From: Escherichia coli
GTDB taxonomy: Bacteria > Pseudomonadota > Gammaproteobacteria > Enterobacterales > Enterobacteriaceae
Strand: one strand, 5' to 3'
Assembly: GCF_030384885.1 (NCBI RefSeq)
Contig: NZ_CP128613.1
Length of the DNA stretch: 64,000 nt
Position 1 is the first letter of the stretch. Every line of letters begins with the position of its first letter. The position numbers are program-made. This document shows positions 14,301 through 20,300 of the stretch, piece by piece.

Positions 14301-17300
14301 GCCTGTCAGCGCCAGCGAGGATCTCGGCGCAGGTACGCATGTTGAGGTGATTGCGATAGAAGGGATAACGCTGATTATCCGTGCGGTCATCGCCTGATGC
14401 GACGCTGGCGCGTCTTATCATGCCTACAAAATATGCCCGAATCGTAGGCCAGATAAGGCGCTTGCGCCGCATCCGGCATATAGCCGAGTAGAGGCAAAAT
14501 TACTCTTCCCGGCCTTTACCCATACTTTTTTGGTCTTCATCCGGATAATGTTTTTTTAGATATTCCAGGACGTTTTTATTGACCTTGTGTTGCGTATACA
14601 CCCACCCTTTCCAGTAATCAGGCTGGTCCAGGTAAACTTCTGGCGGAATGGTGAAATCAGAAAGCGTTAACCATTCGGCTAATAGATCGGGGTTTCGTTT
14701 CTGGATTAACTGCAACAGCATAATCAGTGACATAGCTGAGGCAGGAGCCGTACTATCGCCACTTAAATATTTCCACACTGTTGACCGGTTCGAACGAAAA
14801 AGGATCGGTAGCAATGCCCGGTCCAGATTCATTTCATTAAAAATCTTCTCAAATTCATTCATTTAAATTTTCCTGCCTGGCGTAAACCTCTTAAAAATTG
14901 AGATTTATCAAAGAAACGCATTTTAGCACACATCAGGAACTGCTTCACGTTTAGTCCAGAAACAGAATTTATTTCGCTTATCAAAACAAGTCTTTACTCT
15001 TTTTTACATTAAAAGAGCACGAAATGTTTTCCTTTTTAATTTATAAAAGAAACATTTTTTGTTTCTTATTTGTGGTGTTTACGCTTACACCAGACAAAAA
15101 TGTGCTTTACATCACACAAATGGCGGCGTAGATTTCGATTAAATTGCAACGTAGTTTATTTCTTAAAACAATATTATTTGTTTCTTATAGAAACATTAAT
15201 GCGACTTATTTTGAACAAGAGAAAATGAATGAAAACTGTAAACGTAGCTTTACTGGCACTCATAATTTCAGCAACATCCAGCCCTGTTGTTTTAGCTGGT
15301 GATACCATTGAAGCGGCGGCAACAGAGCTTTCAGCCATTAACTCTGGCATGTCGCAATCGGAGATTGAGCAGAAGATTACCCGCTTTTTAGAACGCACCG
15401 ACAACAGCCCCGCTGCATATACCTATTTGACTGAACATCACTACATCCCTTCTGAAACACCTGATACCACTCAGACTCCCCCTGTCCAGACAGATCCTGA
15501 CGCAGGACAAAAAACCGTTGCCGCTACAGGTGATGTACAGACAACCGCCCGTTATCAGAGCATGATCAACGCCCGACAGTCTGCGGTAACTGATGCCCAG
15601 CAAACGCAAATTACAGAGCAACAGGCGCAGATCGTAGCCACACAAAAAACGCTCGCCGCGACTGGAGATACGCAAAATACTGCGCATTATCAGGAGATGA
15701 TTAATGCCAGACTGGCGGCTCAAAATGAGGCTAATCAGCGCACTACCACGGAACAAGGGCAGAAAATGAATGCACTGACAACCGATGTGGCAGCACAACA
15801 GCAAAAAGAAAGGGCTCAATACGATAAACAAATGCAAAGTCTGGCGCAGAAGTCTGTCCAGGCACATGAGCAAATTGAAAGTCTGAGACAAGATTCCGCA
15901 CAAACGCAGCAACAGTTAACCAACACCCAAAAACGGGTCGCAGATAACAGCCAACAAATTAACACGCTCAATAACCATTTCGATTCTCTGAAAAACGAAG
16001 TTGAGGACAATCGTAAAGAAGCCAATGCGGGAACTGCATCTGCCATCGCTATCGCTTCACAACCACAGGTGAAAACCGGTGACTTTATGATGGTGTCTGC
16101 AGGAGCGGGAACGTTCAACGGTGAATCTGCGGTGTCTGTCGGAACATCATTTAATGCTGGAATTCATACAGTAATTAAAGCGGGAGTCTCTGCGGATACA
16201 CAATCTGATTTCGGCGCGGGTGTCGGCGTGGGGTATTCGTTCTAATTTTAATAGCAATTTCTTATTCGCAATTTTCCGTACATTATTTAAGGTTAACAAT
16301 GATGAATAGCTCCATTAAATCGTTTTCCCTGCTGGCGGTTATATTACTGGCTGGCTGTAGTTCACCCACTTCCCGCATCGCAGATTGCCAAGCGCAGGGA
16401 GTCAGTCATGACACCTGTTATCTCGCAGAACAACAGCGTCAGGCGGCTATTTTAAGTGCATCAGAAGCACAGGCATTTAAAAATGCAGAAGCCGCACAAC
16501 ATGCCCAGGCCGCTAAAAAATCTATTTATAAAGGATTTGGCGTCACCTTCAGAATGAGCAGTAAGAACTTTGCTTATCTCAATGATTCATTATGTGCCAT
16601 AGATGAAGATAATGCCGATGCCACGGTTTATCAGTCGGGTCTGTATAACGTCATTGTTTATCATCACACAGGAAAAGTAGCCTTAATGAAAGAAGGCCAG
16701 TTTGTGGGTTATTTAAAATGAAACTCACGCTTATACATATTATGATTATTGGCGCTTTTATCTTTGCATTCTTGCAAGTGGTATTATTAGCCTCCCTGGT
16801 TCACGCTGTGAATGTTAACAACGAAATCCAGGAAGGCTTATTTCAGTCGGGGCGCATTATGGTAGAAAGTTTGCAGCATATTCTGTCTGTGCAACCGGGG
16901 ATTAACGGGTAAGAGCACCGCTTCCATTTATAGAGCAATAGTCACCCGCGTAATTTTCTGGCACAGTTCAGGGAACTGAAATTTTGGCTAAGGAGTAGCC
17001 ATGCTTTTTCCCTGTCGAAAACCTGAAGTACGTCTGCTGAAAAATACCGCTGCGGGCGTCATTTTTTCGGTGAAGTCAGGTAAAGGATTTCTGCGTCAAT
17101 GTGTGATTTACGATCCGCACCCTTATGGGCTTATCCGTTCGCTCTGCTGGCAGGATGTCCCGTTAATACGTTTCTGGTCCGAGGCTGGCTGCCCCACCTG
17201 TGCGGAATTTGTCTACAGCGGTTTTGCGGATGATGAACAGGGAGCCGCCCGGTTTTTGTCTGCTCTCGAAAACTGGAATCGCCCGTGGTCTGGCATGACG

Positions 17301-20300
17301 GACGCTTTTGCCGCGCTGACACCGCTGTTCTCATGCATGGCTGATGGCTATTATCTGCTCGAAGATCGTGAAATTTACCCGACGGATGGCAACGGGCATT
17401 TCTTTTGGGCGGCAACGGACCATAGCGCCAGTAATCCGGCGACCGTTGCCGTCTGGGATCCTGAATATTGCTATTTCAGTGACACCGCCCCCTGTTTTCT
17501 TCTACCCGGCCAGCCGCCATCACATTTTAATCCTGAGCGTGCGACGTTTTATCGCGATAAACCGGACGCCCGCGCTCTGGCCTGGTATCTCCCTGATTCC
17601 TATCTCTGCGTTCTGCTCGACGGGCACCATAAGGCCACTGCTGCCGCACTGGAAGGGCGACCGCTCAAAACACTGGTACTCAGCACGGCAACCCGTTTTA
17701 ATGATGAGCAACAAACACTGGTATTTCCGGGCGGAGAATGTCTGCACAAAACAGAGCTACTGTGCCACGTTCCCAAACTCACTGAGTGGAAAACATTACC
17801 GCCCGGCGCATGGGAGAGTTTCGGCCCTGATAAGCACATCAGCCCATCCGAAACCTGGTCTGAAGAGTTGCAGCAGAGCGTCAGTCGGTACCCTTCACTG
17901 GATCAAGCCTGGCAAATTGTTGAGGCCGGGAATTTGAGCGAAACTCGTATTAAGAGCATGATCCAACAAGGTTTGGGGGAGGATGAAAAGGCTGATGTAA
18001 TTTTGCAGGCACTGTTTTCCACACACTCGCCGCTTTTTATTGACTTTGCCCGATTCGTTATCAGCTATCCGGCATACGCCAGTTATCGCCCCCTCACCTT
18101 CCGGTTGATGGCGCAAAACCGAACGCCGCAAGCAGATGCTTTTTTTCTGGATTTTGCCATCAATGATGACGGCGAACGTCCGGAGTTGACGAAAATAATG
18201 GACGACTATTTTCGCAAGCGTTAATCACCCCGCCCGATGATGACAGCAGCCGGAGAGATTTTCGATAATCGGGCAGTCGGCGCTGTCATCACCGGGGCAG
18301 GCATTCGCCAGCGCCAGTAACTGGTTGCGCATGGATTGCAGCTCCTCAATGTGTCGTTCGATCTCCGCCACCTTCTCCAACGTGCGCCGTTTGACGTCGG
18401 CGCTATGCCGCTGCGGGTCGTTAAACAGATTCACCAGTTCGCCGCTCTCTTCCAGGTTAAAGCCCACCTGACGCGCCTGGCGCAGTAAGGTCAGTTCGTT
18501 GAGATGCTGCTGCGTGTAGGTTCGATAACCGTTTTCGCTGCGCATCGGCGGCGTCACCAGCCCCTTTTCTTCATAGAAGCGAATGGCTTTGCTGGTCAGG
18601 CCGGTAATTTTTGCTACATCGCTAATGTTCATCGTTCGCGCAACGCCTCCTGTGCTTTGTTAAAGGGTTTCAACAGATAATCCAGCACGCTTTTTTTGCC
18701 GGTGCGGATATCGACCGTCGCCACCATGCCGGGAAATATCGGAAACTGCTGTTTATGTTTATTTTCCAGATGGTTGCTGAAAGTGCGAATGTACACCCGA
18801 TAGTAATAAACATCGCGCCGCACTTCATCCTGCACGGTGTCCGGTGAAATCACCGCCACTTCCCCTGGCAGGCCGCCGTAGATGGAATAATCGTAAGCGG
18901 TTATTTTCACCAGCGATTTTTGCCCCGGATGGATAAACGCCACATCGCGGGGGGAGATTTTTGCCTCGATCAGCAGTTGCTCATCCAGCGGCACGATGGT
19001 CATCAGTTTACCACCGGGGGCGATGACGCCGCCAACCGTGGTGACGTCAATGTCCTGAACAATGCCTCGCACCGGCGCAGTAAAGTTGAGCCGCGTGAGA
19101 GAATCTTCCCGCCCGCGGATCACCGAACGCTGGGTTTCCACTTCCGCATTGGCTTTCGCTAACTCTTCGCGCGCCTGAACGTAGTATTGCGTGCGCACGT
19201 CGCTAAGTTTGTTTTCCAGTTCATTGGCCTGACGTTGCAGGCGCAGCACTTCGACGCTGCTCGCCGCCCCCTGTTTTACCAGCGGCTGGGTCATCGCCAG
19301 TTCGCGGTTGACCAGGCTAATCCCCTGCGTCAGCCCGGTGGTGGCTTTGTTCAGCCCATCGCGGCGAGTGTTATATAACGCCGTTTCCGACTCGATAAGT
19401 TCGGGGAATTTATTCAGTTCGTCAGGGAAGACCAGCGGTTTATTGCTCACTTCCGCCCGCAGCCGCGCCGAGGTTGCCAGCGCCGCGTACAGCCGCGACA
19501 TCGCTTCCTGGACGTCGGATTCCGTTTTGGTGCGGTTAAGCTGTGCCAGCGGCTGCCCCTGTTCGACAATATCGCCAACCTTCACGTCGAGATGATACAA
19601 AATCCCGCCTTCCAGAGACTGCACCACCTGTTCGCGTCCAGAAGGTTCTACCGTGCCGCTGCCGGTGGTGACTTCATCAAGCTGGAAGTACCACGCCCAG
19701 CCGAGAAAACAGAGCAGCATCACAGCGGTAACGCGCACCGCCAGCGCCGAACGTGGCAGGCGGGGTTCAGTCAGGCCACGGTTGTATTGCAGTTGTCCGT
19801 TCATGCGGCAGACCCCTTATTCTTCTCCTGCAACACCACGCGTCGCGTCGTGGGTTCGCCCTGTTCACGCAAAATGGTCTCTTTCGCGCCGTCCATCACA
19901 ATGCGCCCCTGATCCATCACAATTATCCTGTCCACCAGTTGCAGCATTGCCGTGCGGTGAGTAGCGATGACCAGCGTGCGATGGCCAATCCACTGTTTTA
20001 GTTGTTCAATTAAATACGCTTCCGCCATTTCATCCAGCGAGGCACTGGGTTCATCGAGCAGCACGATATTGGGTTGAGAGATGAGGAGCCGCGCCAGCAG
20101 CAGCGTTTGTCGCTGACCACCAGAGAGGCCAAATCCCCCTTCCTGAATCATGTAGTTGAGGCCGTTTTTCTGCTTCTGCACAAAGGGCAGCGCCCCGCTG
20201 AGGGTTAATGCGCGTTCGATATCTTCATCGCTGGCTTCTGGCATCCCCATGGTGAGGTTTTCCCGCAGCGAACCGAAGAACAGTCGCCCGGTCTGGCTGA

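What the first reader, a model, noticed from the sequence alone, without database searches (positions are those of the whole stretch)
14398..18224. Accessory islet between ybbJ and cueR with a small YadA-like trimeric autotransporter
From memory, K-12 has ybbJ and cueR directly convergent. Here about 3.8 kb is inserted: a divergent 120-aa possible regulator, a 338-aa surface protein with a YadA-type C-terminal anchor, a lipoprotein, a coupled 64-aa membrane peptide and a 407-aa unknown protein whose stop codon directly abuts the cueR stop. The regulator/adhesin intergenic is strongly AT-rich. No mobility gene flanks the islet.
Basis: partly seen in the sequence, partly recalled or inferred. 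Interest (0 to 1): 0.6.

Follow-up and report, generated by a model that had tools for sequence, protein, structure and literature searches.

The report
Known E. coli islet OI-29 plus neighbour
The 3.8 kb between ybbJ and cueR is the already described E. coli O-island 29 (a small surface-adhesin cassette) joined to an unrelated, older gene of unknown function. Its one notable point is that the adhesin-like gene has been published as a cytoplasmic flagellar regulator, "GmrA", which its sequence does not support.

Summary
K-12 has nothing between ybbJ and cueR.

The region is two independent modules, not one insertion.

**Module 1 (14500-16912)** is O-island 29 / S-loop 43 of O157:H7. It has a divergent 120-aa gene, then an operon of a 338-aa head-less trimeric autotransporter (full YadA anchor, Pfam E=1.2e-10), a lipoprotein and a translationally coupled 64-aa membrane peptide. 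It is in 1402 of 5426 complete E. coli genomes, and recurs, whole or in part, in at least six other genera. Published deletion primers show that the 338-aa gene is z0639, "GmrA", reported as a DNA-binding activator of fliA. I found a signal peptide and an outer-membrane anchor but no DNA-binding domain.

**Module 2 (17001-18224)** is a cytoplasmic three-domain protein with a ParB/sulfiredoxin-like core and an invariant LLDGHH motif. It matches no Pfam family. It occupies the same ybbJ|cueR slot in E. albertii, E. whittamii and Superficieibacter, and is intact in about 270 E. coli genomes.

Both modules occur together in 160 genomes. The islet is already known. What remains of interest is the GmrA conflict and the uncharacterised accessory genes.

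The parts
13939..14397 (+). ybbJ (NfeD family), the left flank. Its last ~28 nt belong to a haplotype that differs from K-12.
14398..14485 (.). REP (repetitive extragenic palindrome) element directly after the ybbJ stop. It is present in every non-K-12 haplotype examined and duplicated in the O157-like one.
   Evidence: Bases 1-81 of the query match REP copies elsewhere in thousands of E. coli genomes, for example next to rayT in K-12.
14500..14862 (-). 120-aa protein (z0640 / ECs_0549), transcribed divergently from the adhesin operon. It is a candidate XRE/MqsA-HigA2-type helix-turn-helix protein.
   Evidence: - ORF.
- The z0640 deletion primer matches 14862-14900.
- The family is narrow, with no Pfam match.
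- Weak in-register HTH matches only: MqsA_antitoxin E=0.012-0.12, Xre-like-HTH E=0.047, HigA-2 structure E=0.58.
- It lies divergently upstream of the cassette in Escherichia, Pseudocitrobacter, Rahnella, Yersinia and Serratia.
14863..15228 (.). AT-rich (29-35% G+C) divergent promoter region between the 120-aa gene and the adhesin operon.
   Evidence: composition; sequence. The promoter scan was no better than shuffled sequence.
15229..16245 (+). 338-aa head-less trimeric autotransporter (z0639 / ECs_0548 / WP_000859811), published as 'GmrA'. Layout by residue:
- 1-23: signal peptide (VLA|GD)
- ~30-75: conserved tip domain
- ~76-93: Pro/Thr linker
- 94-128 and 139-173: two 45-aa repeats
- to 278: Q/A/T-rich stalk
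- 279-338: YadA anchor (nt 16063-16242), ending GYSF
   Evidence: The gmrA deletion primer equals window 15191-15230.
16299..16721 (+). 140-aa lipoprotein (z0638 / ECs_0546). It has a lipobox LLAG|C with Ser at +2, a conserved Cys pair (C30, C40), a helical linker and a C-terminal small beta-barrel.
   Evidence: -.
- AF2 model: residues 75-139 at about pLDDT 90.
- No profile similarity to MliC beyond the signal peptide.
- No SadB or TpgA similarity.
16718..16912 (+). 64-aa single-pass membrane peptide, translationally coupled to the lipoprotein gene by an ATGA overlap.
   Evidence: -.
- Homologues in Pseudocitrobacter (38-51%) and E. whittamii (90%).
- Coupled small membrane ORFs follow the lipoprotein gene in Rahnella, Serratia and Pantoea too. 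These were seen by position only; no sequence homology was detected.
17001..18224 (+). 407-aa cytoplasmic protein of an uncharacterised family. It has an N-terminal beta domain (CPTC 64-67; YPTDGNGHFFW 126-136), a central ParB/Srx-like domain (LLDGHHKA 205-212) and a C-terminal helical-repeat domain (~268-405).
   Evidence: It occupies the same ybbJ|cueR slot in Superficieibacter, E. albertii and E. whittamii.
18225..18632 (-). cueR, the right flank. Its start codon overlaps the stop of the HlyD-family gene by 4 nt.
   Evidence: NCBIfam PRK10227, E=5.9e-93..

Best explanation
The ybbJ-cueR interval holds two unrelated accessory modules that E. coli lineages have kept or lost independently.

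**Module 1 is O-island 29.** A small divergently transcribed protein, probably an XRE-type DNA binder (inferred), faces an AT-rich promoter region. That region drives an operon with three products:

- a short, head-less trimeric autotransporter;
- a lipoprotein with Ser at +2 (hence probably outer-membrane), a disulfide-bearing N-terminal module and a small beta-barrel;
- a translationally coupled single-pass membrane peptide.

The 338-aa protein would be exported by Sec. Three copies of its C-terminal four-strand anchor would form a 12-strand barrel, inserted by BAM. The Q/A/T-rich coiled-coil stalk would then be threaded out, displaying a conserved ~50-residue tip. These steps follow from family membership; the domains themselves are shown. 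The stalk evolves fast by repeat gain and loss. The lipoprotein and peptide are most likely a periplasmic accessory pair for this adhesin, acting in stabilisation, anchoring or signalling. That is inferred from recurrent synteny only.

**Module 2 is a cytoplasmic three-domain protein.** Its core is a ParB/sulfiredoxin fold with an invariant DGHH motif. It is therefore most likely a nucleotide-binding or phosphotransfer enzyme (inferred). It is older than the cassette at this site.

K-12 represents the haplotype that has neither module.
For: **The 338-aa protein is a trimeric autotransporter**
- PF03895 full-length match, E=1.2e-10.
- AtaA and Hia anchor structures, E=2.5e-7 to 3.4e-5.
- PHROG 'adhesin' family, E=4.7e-22.
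- EmaA and Vomp autotransporter C-termini.
- RefSeq name 'YadA family autotransporter adhesin'.
- Signal peptide and C-terminal GYSF are read directly from the sequence.

**Identity with OI-29**
- Same site and genes in Sakai.
- 94.7% identity to the O157-type protein.
- Primers of PMC5826968 map onto the three genes.
- Ogura 2007 lists ECs0548 as 'Saa-like protein'.

**Cassette conservation**
- Regulator, adhesin, lipoprotein and peptide recur in Pseudocitrobacter faecalis next to a large serine recombinase.
- The same four genes are in E. whittamii and a Pseudocitrobacter MAG. Partial forms occur in four other genera: regulator-adhesin-lipoprotein in Rahnella (also with a coupled small ORF) and Yersinia; adhesin-lipoprotein in Enterobacter and Lelliottia.

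**Independence of the modules**
- Cassette at >=80% coverage in 1402 genomes.
- 407 gene in 965 genomes, 270 of them at >=80% coverage.
- Both in 160 genomes.
- Example loci.

**407-aa protein**
- AF2 model pLDDT 86.7, pTM 0.85.
- Invariant L206-D207-G208-H209-H210.
- Same-architecture AFDB homologues auto-named ParB/Sulfiredoxin.
- 675 cluster representatives, nearly all ~420 aa.
- Syntenic in Superficieibacter.
Against: - A peer-reviewed study reports EMSA and ChIP-qPCR binding of the 338-aa protein to the fliA promoter. It also reports motility defects on deletion in nine strains (PMC5826968).
- No head, neck or stalk Pfam motif was found, so the passenger is atypical.
- Roughly half of the full-length lipoprotein loci in other genera have no adjacent YadA-anchor gene.
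- A 2026 survey found no trimeric-autotransporter helpers beyond SadB and TpgA. It only considered adhesins with a YadA head, so this one would not have been included.
- The HTH of the 120-aa protein is below significance.
Confidence: 0.8

Rival explanations
1. The 338-aa protein is what the literature says. GmrA would be a cytoplasmic transcriptional activator that binds the fliA promoter and switches on flagellar genes, and the YadA-anchor similarity would be irrelevant.
For: PMC5826968 reports:
- deletion lowers motility, FliC and fliA mRNA, and complementation restores them;
- N-terminally His-tagged protein shifts a fliA promoter fragment;
- 7.75-fold ChIP-qPCR enrichment with IPTG-induced 3xFLAG protein;
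- the same motility phenotype in eight further strains.

The reviews PMC10877973 and PMC9387321 repeat the claim.
Against: - No DNA-binding domain appears in Pfam or NCBIfam. There are only sub-threshold coiled-coil matches to SMC-type proteins, a plausible source of the 'putative DNA-binding domain' the authors took from CDD.
- The protein has a Sec-type signal peptide and a complete outer-membrane anchor. Native protein should therefore not meet DNA.
- The binding assays used an N-terminal tag, which would mask the signal peptide, or strong over-expression.
- The only ORF in the island with any HTH resemblance is the 120-aa z0640, not z0639.
Confidence: 0.08
2. The whole 3.8 kb is one horizontally acquired islet whose five genes work together.
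For: - All five genes are contiguous and four are co-oriented.
- The cassette part has lower G+C.
- The five-gene arrangement also exists in E. whittamii.
Against: - The two parts are found separately far more often than together: 1402 and 965 genomes against 160.
- The 407-aa gene occurs alone at this site in E. albertii and Superficieibacter, and elsewhere (rihA-hscC) in Salmonella.
- The cassette occurs without it in Pseudocitrobacter, Rahnella, Yersinia and Enterobacter.
- An 88-nt gap, and an RBS shared with the 407-only haplotype, separate the two parts.
Confidence: 0.07
3. The lipoprotein and peptide pair is an independent envelope function that merely travels next to adhesin genes. One possibility is a PliC/MliC-like inhibitor of a host or phage muramidase.
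For: - About half of the full-length homologues in other genera have no neighbouring YadA-anchor gene. Serratia silvae keeps regulator, lipoprotein and peptide without an adhesin.
Against: - There is no profile similarity to MliC beyond the lipobox.
- In ten independent loci the lipoprotein gene lies at or near the 3' end of a gene with a YadA or YadA-like anchor, on the same strand. That covers seven named genera plus one unclassified Enterobacteriaceae MAG.
Confidence: 0.25

Closest known systems
O-island 29 (OI-29) of E. coli O157:H7 EDL933, equal to S-loop 43 of Sakai (z0638-z0640; ECs_0546, 0548, 0549)
   Same: Same chromosomal slot (ybbJ|cueR), same gene order and orientation. The adhesin is 94.7% identical, and the published primers map onto the genes.
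   Different: The window also carries the 407-aa gene, which O157:H7 lacks. In O157 the small peptide ORF ends 3 nt from the cueR stop.
Trimeric autotransporter adhesins (type Vc secretion): YadA, Hia, AtaA, Saa, Eib
   Same: N-terminal signal peptide, coiled-coil passenger, and a complete C-terminal YadA anchor ending in an aromatic residue.
   Different: - It is very short (338 aa).
- No YadA head, neck, HIM or Hep_Hag motif was detected.
- The tip is a small ~50-aa domain, found here only in other E. coli alleles and P. faecalis.
Trimeric-autotransporter helper proteins SadB (Salmonella/E. coli, PMC3953254) and TpgA (Acinetobacter, PMC12523085)
   Same: A small envelope protein encoded in the same operon as a trimeric autotransporter, and recurrently syntenic with it.
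   Different: - There is no sequence or fold similarity to SadB.
- It has no BamE or OmpA domain, unlike TpgA.
- It lies downstream of the adhesin, not upstream as SadB does.
- Ser at +2 predicts outer-membrane sorting, whereas SadB is an inner-membrane lipoprotein.
- It comes with a coupled membrane peptide.
ParB/sulfiredoxin-fold proteins (ParB/KorB CTPases, sulfiredoxin, free serine kinases SerK/SbnI, PadC)
   Same: The predicted central fold and a DGHH[K/R] motif in the expected strand-helix position.
   Different: - Pfam ParBc does not match.
- The domain is sandwiched between a unique beta domain with a CPTC motif and a HEAT/VHS-like helical domain.
- There is no HTH, no partition partner and no conserved neighbours.

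Membership tests
Trimeric autotransporter adhesin (type Vc) | C-terminal YadA-type membrane anchor (PF03895), four beta-strands per monomer. | tested here: met
   PF03895, residues 279-338, model positions 1-60 of 60, E=1.2e-10. AtaA and Hia anchor chains, E=2.5e-7 to 3.4e-5.
Trimeric autotransporter adhesin (type Vc) | N-terminal Sec signal peptide. | tested here: met
   Read from the sequence: MK, then a hydrophobic core at residues 5-22, then VLA|GD. No dedicated predictor was available.
Trimeric autotransporter adhesin (type Vc) | Passenger built of head, neck and stalk modules (YadA_head, HIM, Hep_Hag, YadA_stalk). | tested here: not met
   No such Pfam domain at E<=10. Only generic coiled-coil matches and two 45-aa repeats were found. 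Head-less, stalk-only passengers are still compatible with the family.
Trimeric autotransporter adhesin (type Vc) | Trimerisation, surface display, adhesive function. | not testable with these tools
   This needs fractionation, heat-modifiability and adhesion assays.
O-island 29 of O157:H7 | Same genes at the ybbJ|cueR junction. | tested here: met
   Sakai annotation, O157-type locus, primer mapping and 94.7% adhesin identity.
DNA-binding transcription factor (as claimed for GmrA) | A recognisable DNA-binding domain in the 338-aa protein. | tested here: not met
   Pfam and NCBIfam give none. SMC-type hits are coiled-coil matches far below the curated cut-offs (21 bits against 567).
SadB-type adhesin helper lipoprotein | Sequence or fold similarity to SadB, a position upstream of the adhesin, and inner-membrane retention. 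| tested here: not met
TpgA-type adhesin partner | BamE and/or OmpA_C peptidoglycan-binding domain. | tested here: not met
   No such Pfam or NCBIfam domain.
PliC/MliC lysozyme inhibitors | Eight-strand barrel with the family's sequence profile. | tested here: inconclusive
ParB/sulfiredoxin superfamily (407-aa protein) | ParB/Srx fold with the conserved DGxH[R/K]-type nucleotide-binding motif. | tested here: met
ParB/sulfiredoxin superfamily (407-aa protein) | Match to the Pfam ParBc profile; nucleotide binding or hydrolysis. | tested here: not met
   No Pfam match for any of the 38 members. The biochemistry cannot be tested here.
XRE / MqsA-HigA2-type HTH regulators (120-aa protein) | Significant match to an HTH profile. 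| tested here: inconclusive
   MqsA_antitoxin E=0.12 (best family member 0.012), Xre-like-HTH 0.047, HigA-2 structure 0.58. All are in register on residues 3-63.

The most novel reading that the evidence does not exclude
The conserved set of regulator, head-less adhesin, lipoprotein and coupled membrane peptide could be a third, undescribed kind of trimeric-autotransporter accessory system, after SadB and TpgA. In this reading the lipoprotein and peptide span the periplasm and report the state of the surface fibre to the cell. That would give an indirect, envelope-signalling explanation for the reproducible motility phenotype now attributed to DNA binding by 'GmrA'.
Probability: 0.12. Interest if true: 0.6.

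Novelty: already known. Interest (0 to 1): 0.33.

Why it matters
- **Evolution.** The original study proposed four independent gains of OI-29. The ybbJ|cueR slot looks instead like an old polymorphic site, with differential loss of two modules.
- **Discovery.** Three small families remain without any known function: the 120-aa protein, the lipoprotein with its peptide, and the 407-aa ParB/Srx protein (675 clusters at 50% identity). The lipoprotein pair is a testable candidate adhesin helper.

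Tried and rejected
- **SadB-like or TpgA-like helper.** Rejected. There was no sequence, domain or fold similarity.
- **MliC homology of the lipoprotein.** hhalign aligned only the lipobox.
- **TraV relationship.** Only a sub-threshold N-terminal match, E=8.5e-4 and 20 bits against a cut-off of 44.75. I kept it as a remark.
- **Phage, defence or toxin-immunity reading.**
  - PADLOC returned only sub-threshold coiled-coil matches for the 338-aa protein, and nothing for the other four.
  - PHROGs matched the adhesin stalk and anchor significantly; its only other hits were sub-threshold, for the 120-aa protein and the lipoprotein.
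  - tblastn against phages found only anchor and part-stalk similarity to phage YadA-like proteins.
- **Conserved partners for the 407-aa family.** None was found in six distant contexts. One homologue follows a cytoplasmic SPFH gene but is separated from it by a hairpin, which I judged weak.
- **Fusion relatives of the 407-aa family.** They gave no domain clue.
- **Promoter and terminator scans.** No better than shuffled sequence.
- **Rfam.** Nothing in the interval.
- **PDB sequence searches for the 407-aa protein and its profile.** No meaningful hit.
- **Deletion scars.** I tried to read the junctions of the four haplotypes as simple deletion scars. Only short, ambiguous similarities appeared, so the order of events is left open.

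Full report
**Observation**

- ybbJ, 13939-14397 (+).
- A 120-aa ORF, 14500-14862 (-).
- A 338-aa ORF, 15229-16245 (+).
- A 140-aa ORF with lipobox LLAG|C, 16299-16721 (+).
- A 64-aa hydrophobic ORF, 16718-16912 (+), overlapping the previous stop by ATGA.
- A 407-aa ORF, 17001-18224 (+), whose TAA is followed directly by the cueR stop.

The 366-bp divergent intergenic region is 29-35% G+C, against 50-60% in the flanks. In K-12 MG1655 the stops of cueR (514400) and ybbJ (514401) abut with no base between them. The memory-based premise was therefore right. There is no integrase or transposase. The only repeat is a REP element right after ybbJ.

**What the region is**

A megablast against 5426 complete E. 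coli genomes found a 99.9% identical copy in strain 2013C-4282, annotated with the same five CDSs. The interval exists in four states:

| State | Example |
|---|---|
| Empty | K-12 |
| Four genes, no 407-aa gene | O157:H7-type strains, pig strain LCP30S3 |
| 407-aa gene only | strain 83972 (intact), REF2 (decayed) |
| All five genes | this window |

Separate searches gave these counts:

| Content | Genomes of 5426 |
|---|---|
| Four-gene cassette, at least 80% coverage | 1402 |
| 407-aa gene, any match | 965 |
| 407-aa gene, at least 80% coverage | 270 |
| Whole interval | 160 |

The remaining 407-aa copies carry internal deletions. The 'islet' is therefore a composite of two independently segregating modules.

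**Module 1 is O-island 29**

In O157:H7 Sakai the same slot holds ECs_0546 (lipoprotein), ECs_0548 ('adhesin') and ECs_0549. A literature search on the EDL933 tags found Yang et al. 2018 (PMC5826968). That paper describes OI-29 as z0638-z0639-z0640 and names z0639 'GmrA', a transcriptional activator that binds the fliA promoter.

The paper's deletion primers settle which gene is which:

- The gmrA reverse primer is window 15191-15230, ending on the ATG of the 338-aa ORF.
- The z0640 primer is the reverse complement of 14862-14900, so z0640 is the 120-aa gene.
- By position, z0638 is the lipoprotein.

Ogura et al. 2007 had listed ECs0548 (S-loop 43) as a 'Saa-like protein' among adhesion genes.

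**The 338-aa protein**

- Pfam finds a complete YadA_anchor at residues 279-338 (model 1-60 of 60, E=1.2e-10). It finds no other significant domain.
- PDB sequences of the AtaA and Hia anchors match at E=2.5e-7 to 3.4e-5.
- NCBIfam gives sub-threshold EmaA and Vomp autotransporter C-termini.
- A PHROG 'adhesin' family matches residues 99-338 at E=4.7e-22.
- The N-terminus is a textbook Sec signal (MK, hydrophobic core, VLA|GD), and the protein ends GYSF.
- Between them lie a ~50-residue domain, a Pro/Thr linker, two 45-residue repeats and a Q/A/T-rich stalk.
- No YadA head or neck motif is found, so it is a head-less, stalk-type trimeric autotransporter.
- No DNA-binding domain is found. The only non-anchor hits are weak coiled-coil matches to SMC-like proteins. 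These are probably what CDD reported to the authors as a 'putative DNA-binding domain'.

The published binding data used N-terminally His-tagged protein and IPTG-induced FLAG-tagged protein. An N-terminal tag would block export. I therefore consider the motility phenotype possibly real, but direct DNA binding by the native protein unlikely.

**Allelic variation of the adhesin**

The O157-type protein is 94.7% identical to the window's. In strain 3347558 the true ORF is about 600 aa, with ~100-residue tandem repeats, and RefSeq starts its CDS at an internal Met. In E. whittamii the adhesin is 415 aa and only 50-67% identical. Its neighbours are far closer: 98% (regulator), 98% (lipoprotein) and 93% (407-aa). 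The passenger is thus the fast-evolving part. The short tip domain recurs in E. coli alleles and in the 633-aa adhesin of Pseudocitrobacter faecalis (40% over residues 4-77).

**The accessory genes of module 1**

*Lipoprotein.*
- Its family is confined to Enterobacterales and has no Pfam domain.
- The alignment shows the lipobox Cys, two further conserved Cys (C30, C40) and a conserved C-terminal half.
- The AF2 model is mediocre overall (pLDDT 72) but about 90 for a C-terminal eight-strand barrel, residues 75-139.
- hhalign against E. coli MliC aligns only the signal peptide.
- It is therefore neither SadB-like nor TpgA-like. The PliC-like fold is a resemblance, not membership.

*Synteny.* A scan of species-representative genomes with the lipoprotein profile returned 33 loci. 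Local HMM searches of their ORFs showed the following:

- A gene with a YadA or YadA-like anchor lies upstream of the lipoprotein gene, on the same strand, in ten loci. It is directly adjacent in nine; in Pantoea two genes intervene. The loci are E. whittamii, a Pseudocitrobacter MAG, an Enterobacteriaceae MAG, Phytobacter (anchor judged by eye), Rahnella, Yersinia aleksiciae, two Enterobacter, Lelliottia and Pantoea.
- P. faecalis and E. asburiae, found earlier, show the same arrangement.
- A homologue of the 120-aa gene lies divergently upstream in E. whittamii, Pseudocitrobacter, Rahnella, Yersinia and Serratia.
- A small membrane ORF is coupled to the lipoprotein stop in Escherichia, Pseudocitrobacter, Rahnella, Serratia and Pantoea. 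In the last three this rests on position only.
- About half of the full-length lipoprotein loci have no adhesin next to them, so the link is frequent but not obligatory.
- In P. faecalis the cassette sits beside a large serine recombinase. This is the only mobility gene seen with it.
- In a Pseudocitrobacter MAG and in Serratia silvae the cassette lies immediately upstream of qmcA-ybbJ-cueR. That is the same neighbourhood as in Escherichia but a different slot.

*The 120-aa protein.* It has only weak matches to MqsA/HigA2/Xre-type HTH domains (E=0.012-0.58). They are consistently in register on residues 3-63. 'Regulator' is plausible but not shown.

**Module 2, the 407-aa protein**

- There is no Pfam, NCBIfam, PHROG or PADLOC match.
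- Homologues occur in E. albertii, Salmonella (54% identity), Superficieibacter (47%), and distantly in Clostridia, Fusobacteria and Enterococcaceae.
- A profile search of 1.84 billion cluster representatives found 675 relatives. Almost all are about 420 aa and match end to end.
- The alignment shows three near-invariant motifs: CPTC (64-67), YPTDGNGHFFW (126-136) and LLDGHHKA (205-212).
- The AF2 model is good (pLDDT 86.7, pTM 0.85).
- Several same-architecture AFDB entries are automatically named ParB-like or ParB/Sulfiredoxin.
- I infer a cytoplasmic nucleotide-binding or phosphotransfer enzyme. No conserved neighbour gives a pathway.

The gene sits in the ybbJ|cueR slot in Superficieibacter electus, E. 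albertii and E. whittamii. In Salmonella it lies between rihA and hscC. Its presence at this site is therefore old. The many internally deleted E. coli copies show ongoing loss.

**History**

All non-K-12 haplotypes share a ybbJ 3' end and a REP element that K-12 lacks. K-12's last ~28 nt of ybbJ are only about 57% identical to theirs. In the five-gene form the cassette lies between the REP element and the RBS of the 407-aa gene. In the four-gene form the sequence jumps from 6 nt before the peptide's stop to within a few bases of the cueR stop.

E. whittamii also has the five-gene form. The simplest reading is an old, fully occupied site with lineage-specific deletions, plus allele exchange by recombination. 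That differs from the four independent acquisitions proposed in PMC5826968. I could not establish the order of events from the junctions.

**Comparison with the known, and verdict**

The finding is real, and its main claim (a small trimeric autotransporter in a K-12-absent interval) is correct. But the cassette is the known OI-29 / S-loop 43, and RefSeq already calls its adhesin a YadA family autotransporter. The novelty class is therefore 'already known'. Four points are new or useful:

1. 'GmrA' and the YadA-anchor protein are demonstrably the same gene, with no detectable DNA-binding domain.
2. The four genes form a cassette found across several genera, with a lipoprotein and peptide pair unlike SadB or TpgA. 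A 2026 survey restricted to head-bearing adhesins would have missed it.
3. The 407-aa gene is a separate, older resident with a ParB/Srx core.
4. The site looks like one of differential loss.

I score the interest as modest.

Noticed in passing
window 18629-45099 (-): Beyond cueR lies a type I secretion locus (the O157 O-island 28 equivalent):
- HlyD-family adaptor, 18629-19804
- ABC permease/ATPase, 19801-21963
- one uninterrupted 7222-aa ORF, 21967-43635 (SiiEA/BapA-like giant adhesin)
- a 451-aa ORF, 43744-45099

In the 99.9% identical strain 2013C-4282, RefSeq flags siiEA as frameshifted. Here it reads through.
   Followed up: partly
window 18629-18632: The cueR start codon overlaps the stop of the HlyD-family gene by 4 nt (ATGA on the minus strand). 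In this haplotype cueR may therefore be co-transcribed with the secretion operon. In K-12 it follows ybaT after an intergenic gap.
   Followed up: no
L022 (Pseudocitrobacter MAG) 3115-7683; L032 (Serratia silvae) 4390-7620: The regulator, (adhesin), lipoprotein and peptide cassette lies immediately upstream of qmcA-ybbJ-cueR in these two genera. In Escherichia it lies downstream of ybbJ. The recurrent association with the SPFH/NfeD operon neighbourhood is unexplained.
   Followed up: partly
L020 (E. coli 3347558) ~2240-4020: The adhesin ORF is really about 600 aa, with ~100-residue tandem repeats and the same signal peptide and tip domain. The RefSeq CDS (349 aa) starts at an internal Met. Stalk length is polymorphic among E. 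coli alleles.
   Followed up: partly
L036, L038, L040-L044, L046-L048, L050, L053 (around 5000-5200): Buttiauxella, Atlantibacter, Silvania, Pseudomonas and Aeromonas encode 63-69-aa lipoproteins that consist only of the N-terminal module of the islet lipoprotein (lipobox + RMADCQAQGISKDTCYLAEQNRQ + helix). The module also resembles the TraV N-terminus weakly (NCBIfam E=8.5e-4, below cut-off).
   Followed up: no
L016/L017 3798-6287: A distant (33%) homologue of the 407-aa protein lies directly after a cytoplasmic SPFH/Band_7 gene, echoing the qmcA-ybbJ-407 order in Escherichia. A hairpin separates the two genes, and five other distant contexts show no SPFH gene.
   Followed up: partly
window 16216-16240: A terminator-like hairpin followed by a T-rich tract overlaps the last codons of the adhesin gene, just before the lipoprotein gene. 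It could set the adhesin:lipoprotein expression ratio. This is a consensus match only, and the number of such sites in the region is no higher than in shuffles.
   Followed up: no
window 50542-50619; 51552-51635 (-); 5316-5404 (-): Rfam gathering-threshold matches elsewhere in the window: naRNA4 (REP-derived, on both strands), sroB and AgrB.
   Followed up: no
L005 (O157-type strain 144) 3329-3506: The O157-type haplotype carries two REP copies between ybbJ and the 120-aa gene, where the window has one. This accounts for its longer spacer.
   Followed up: no
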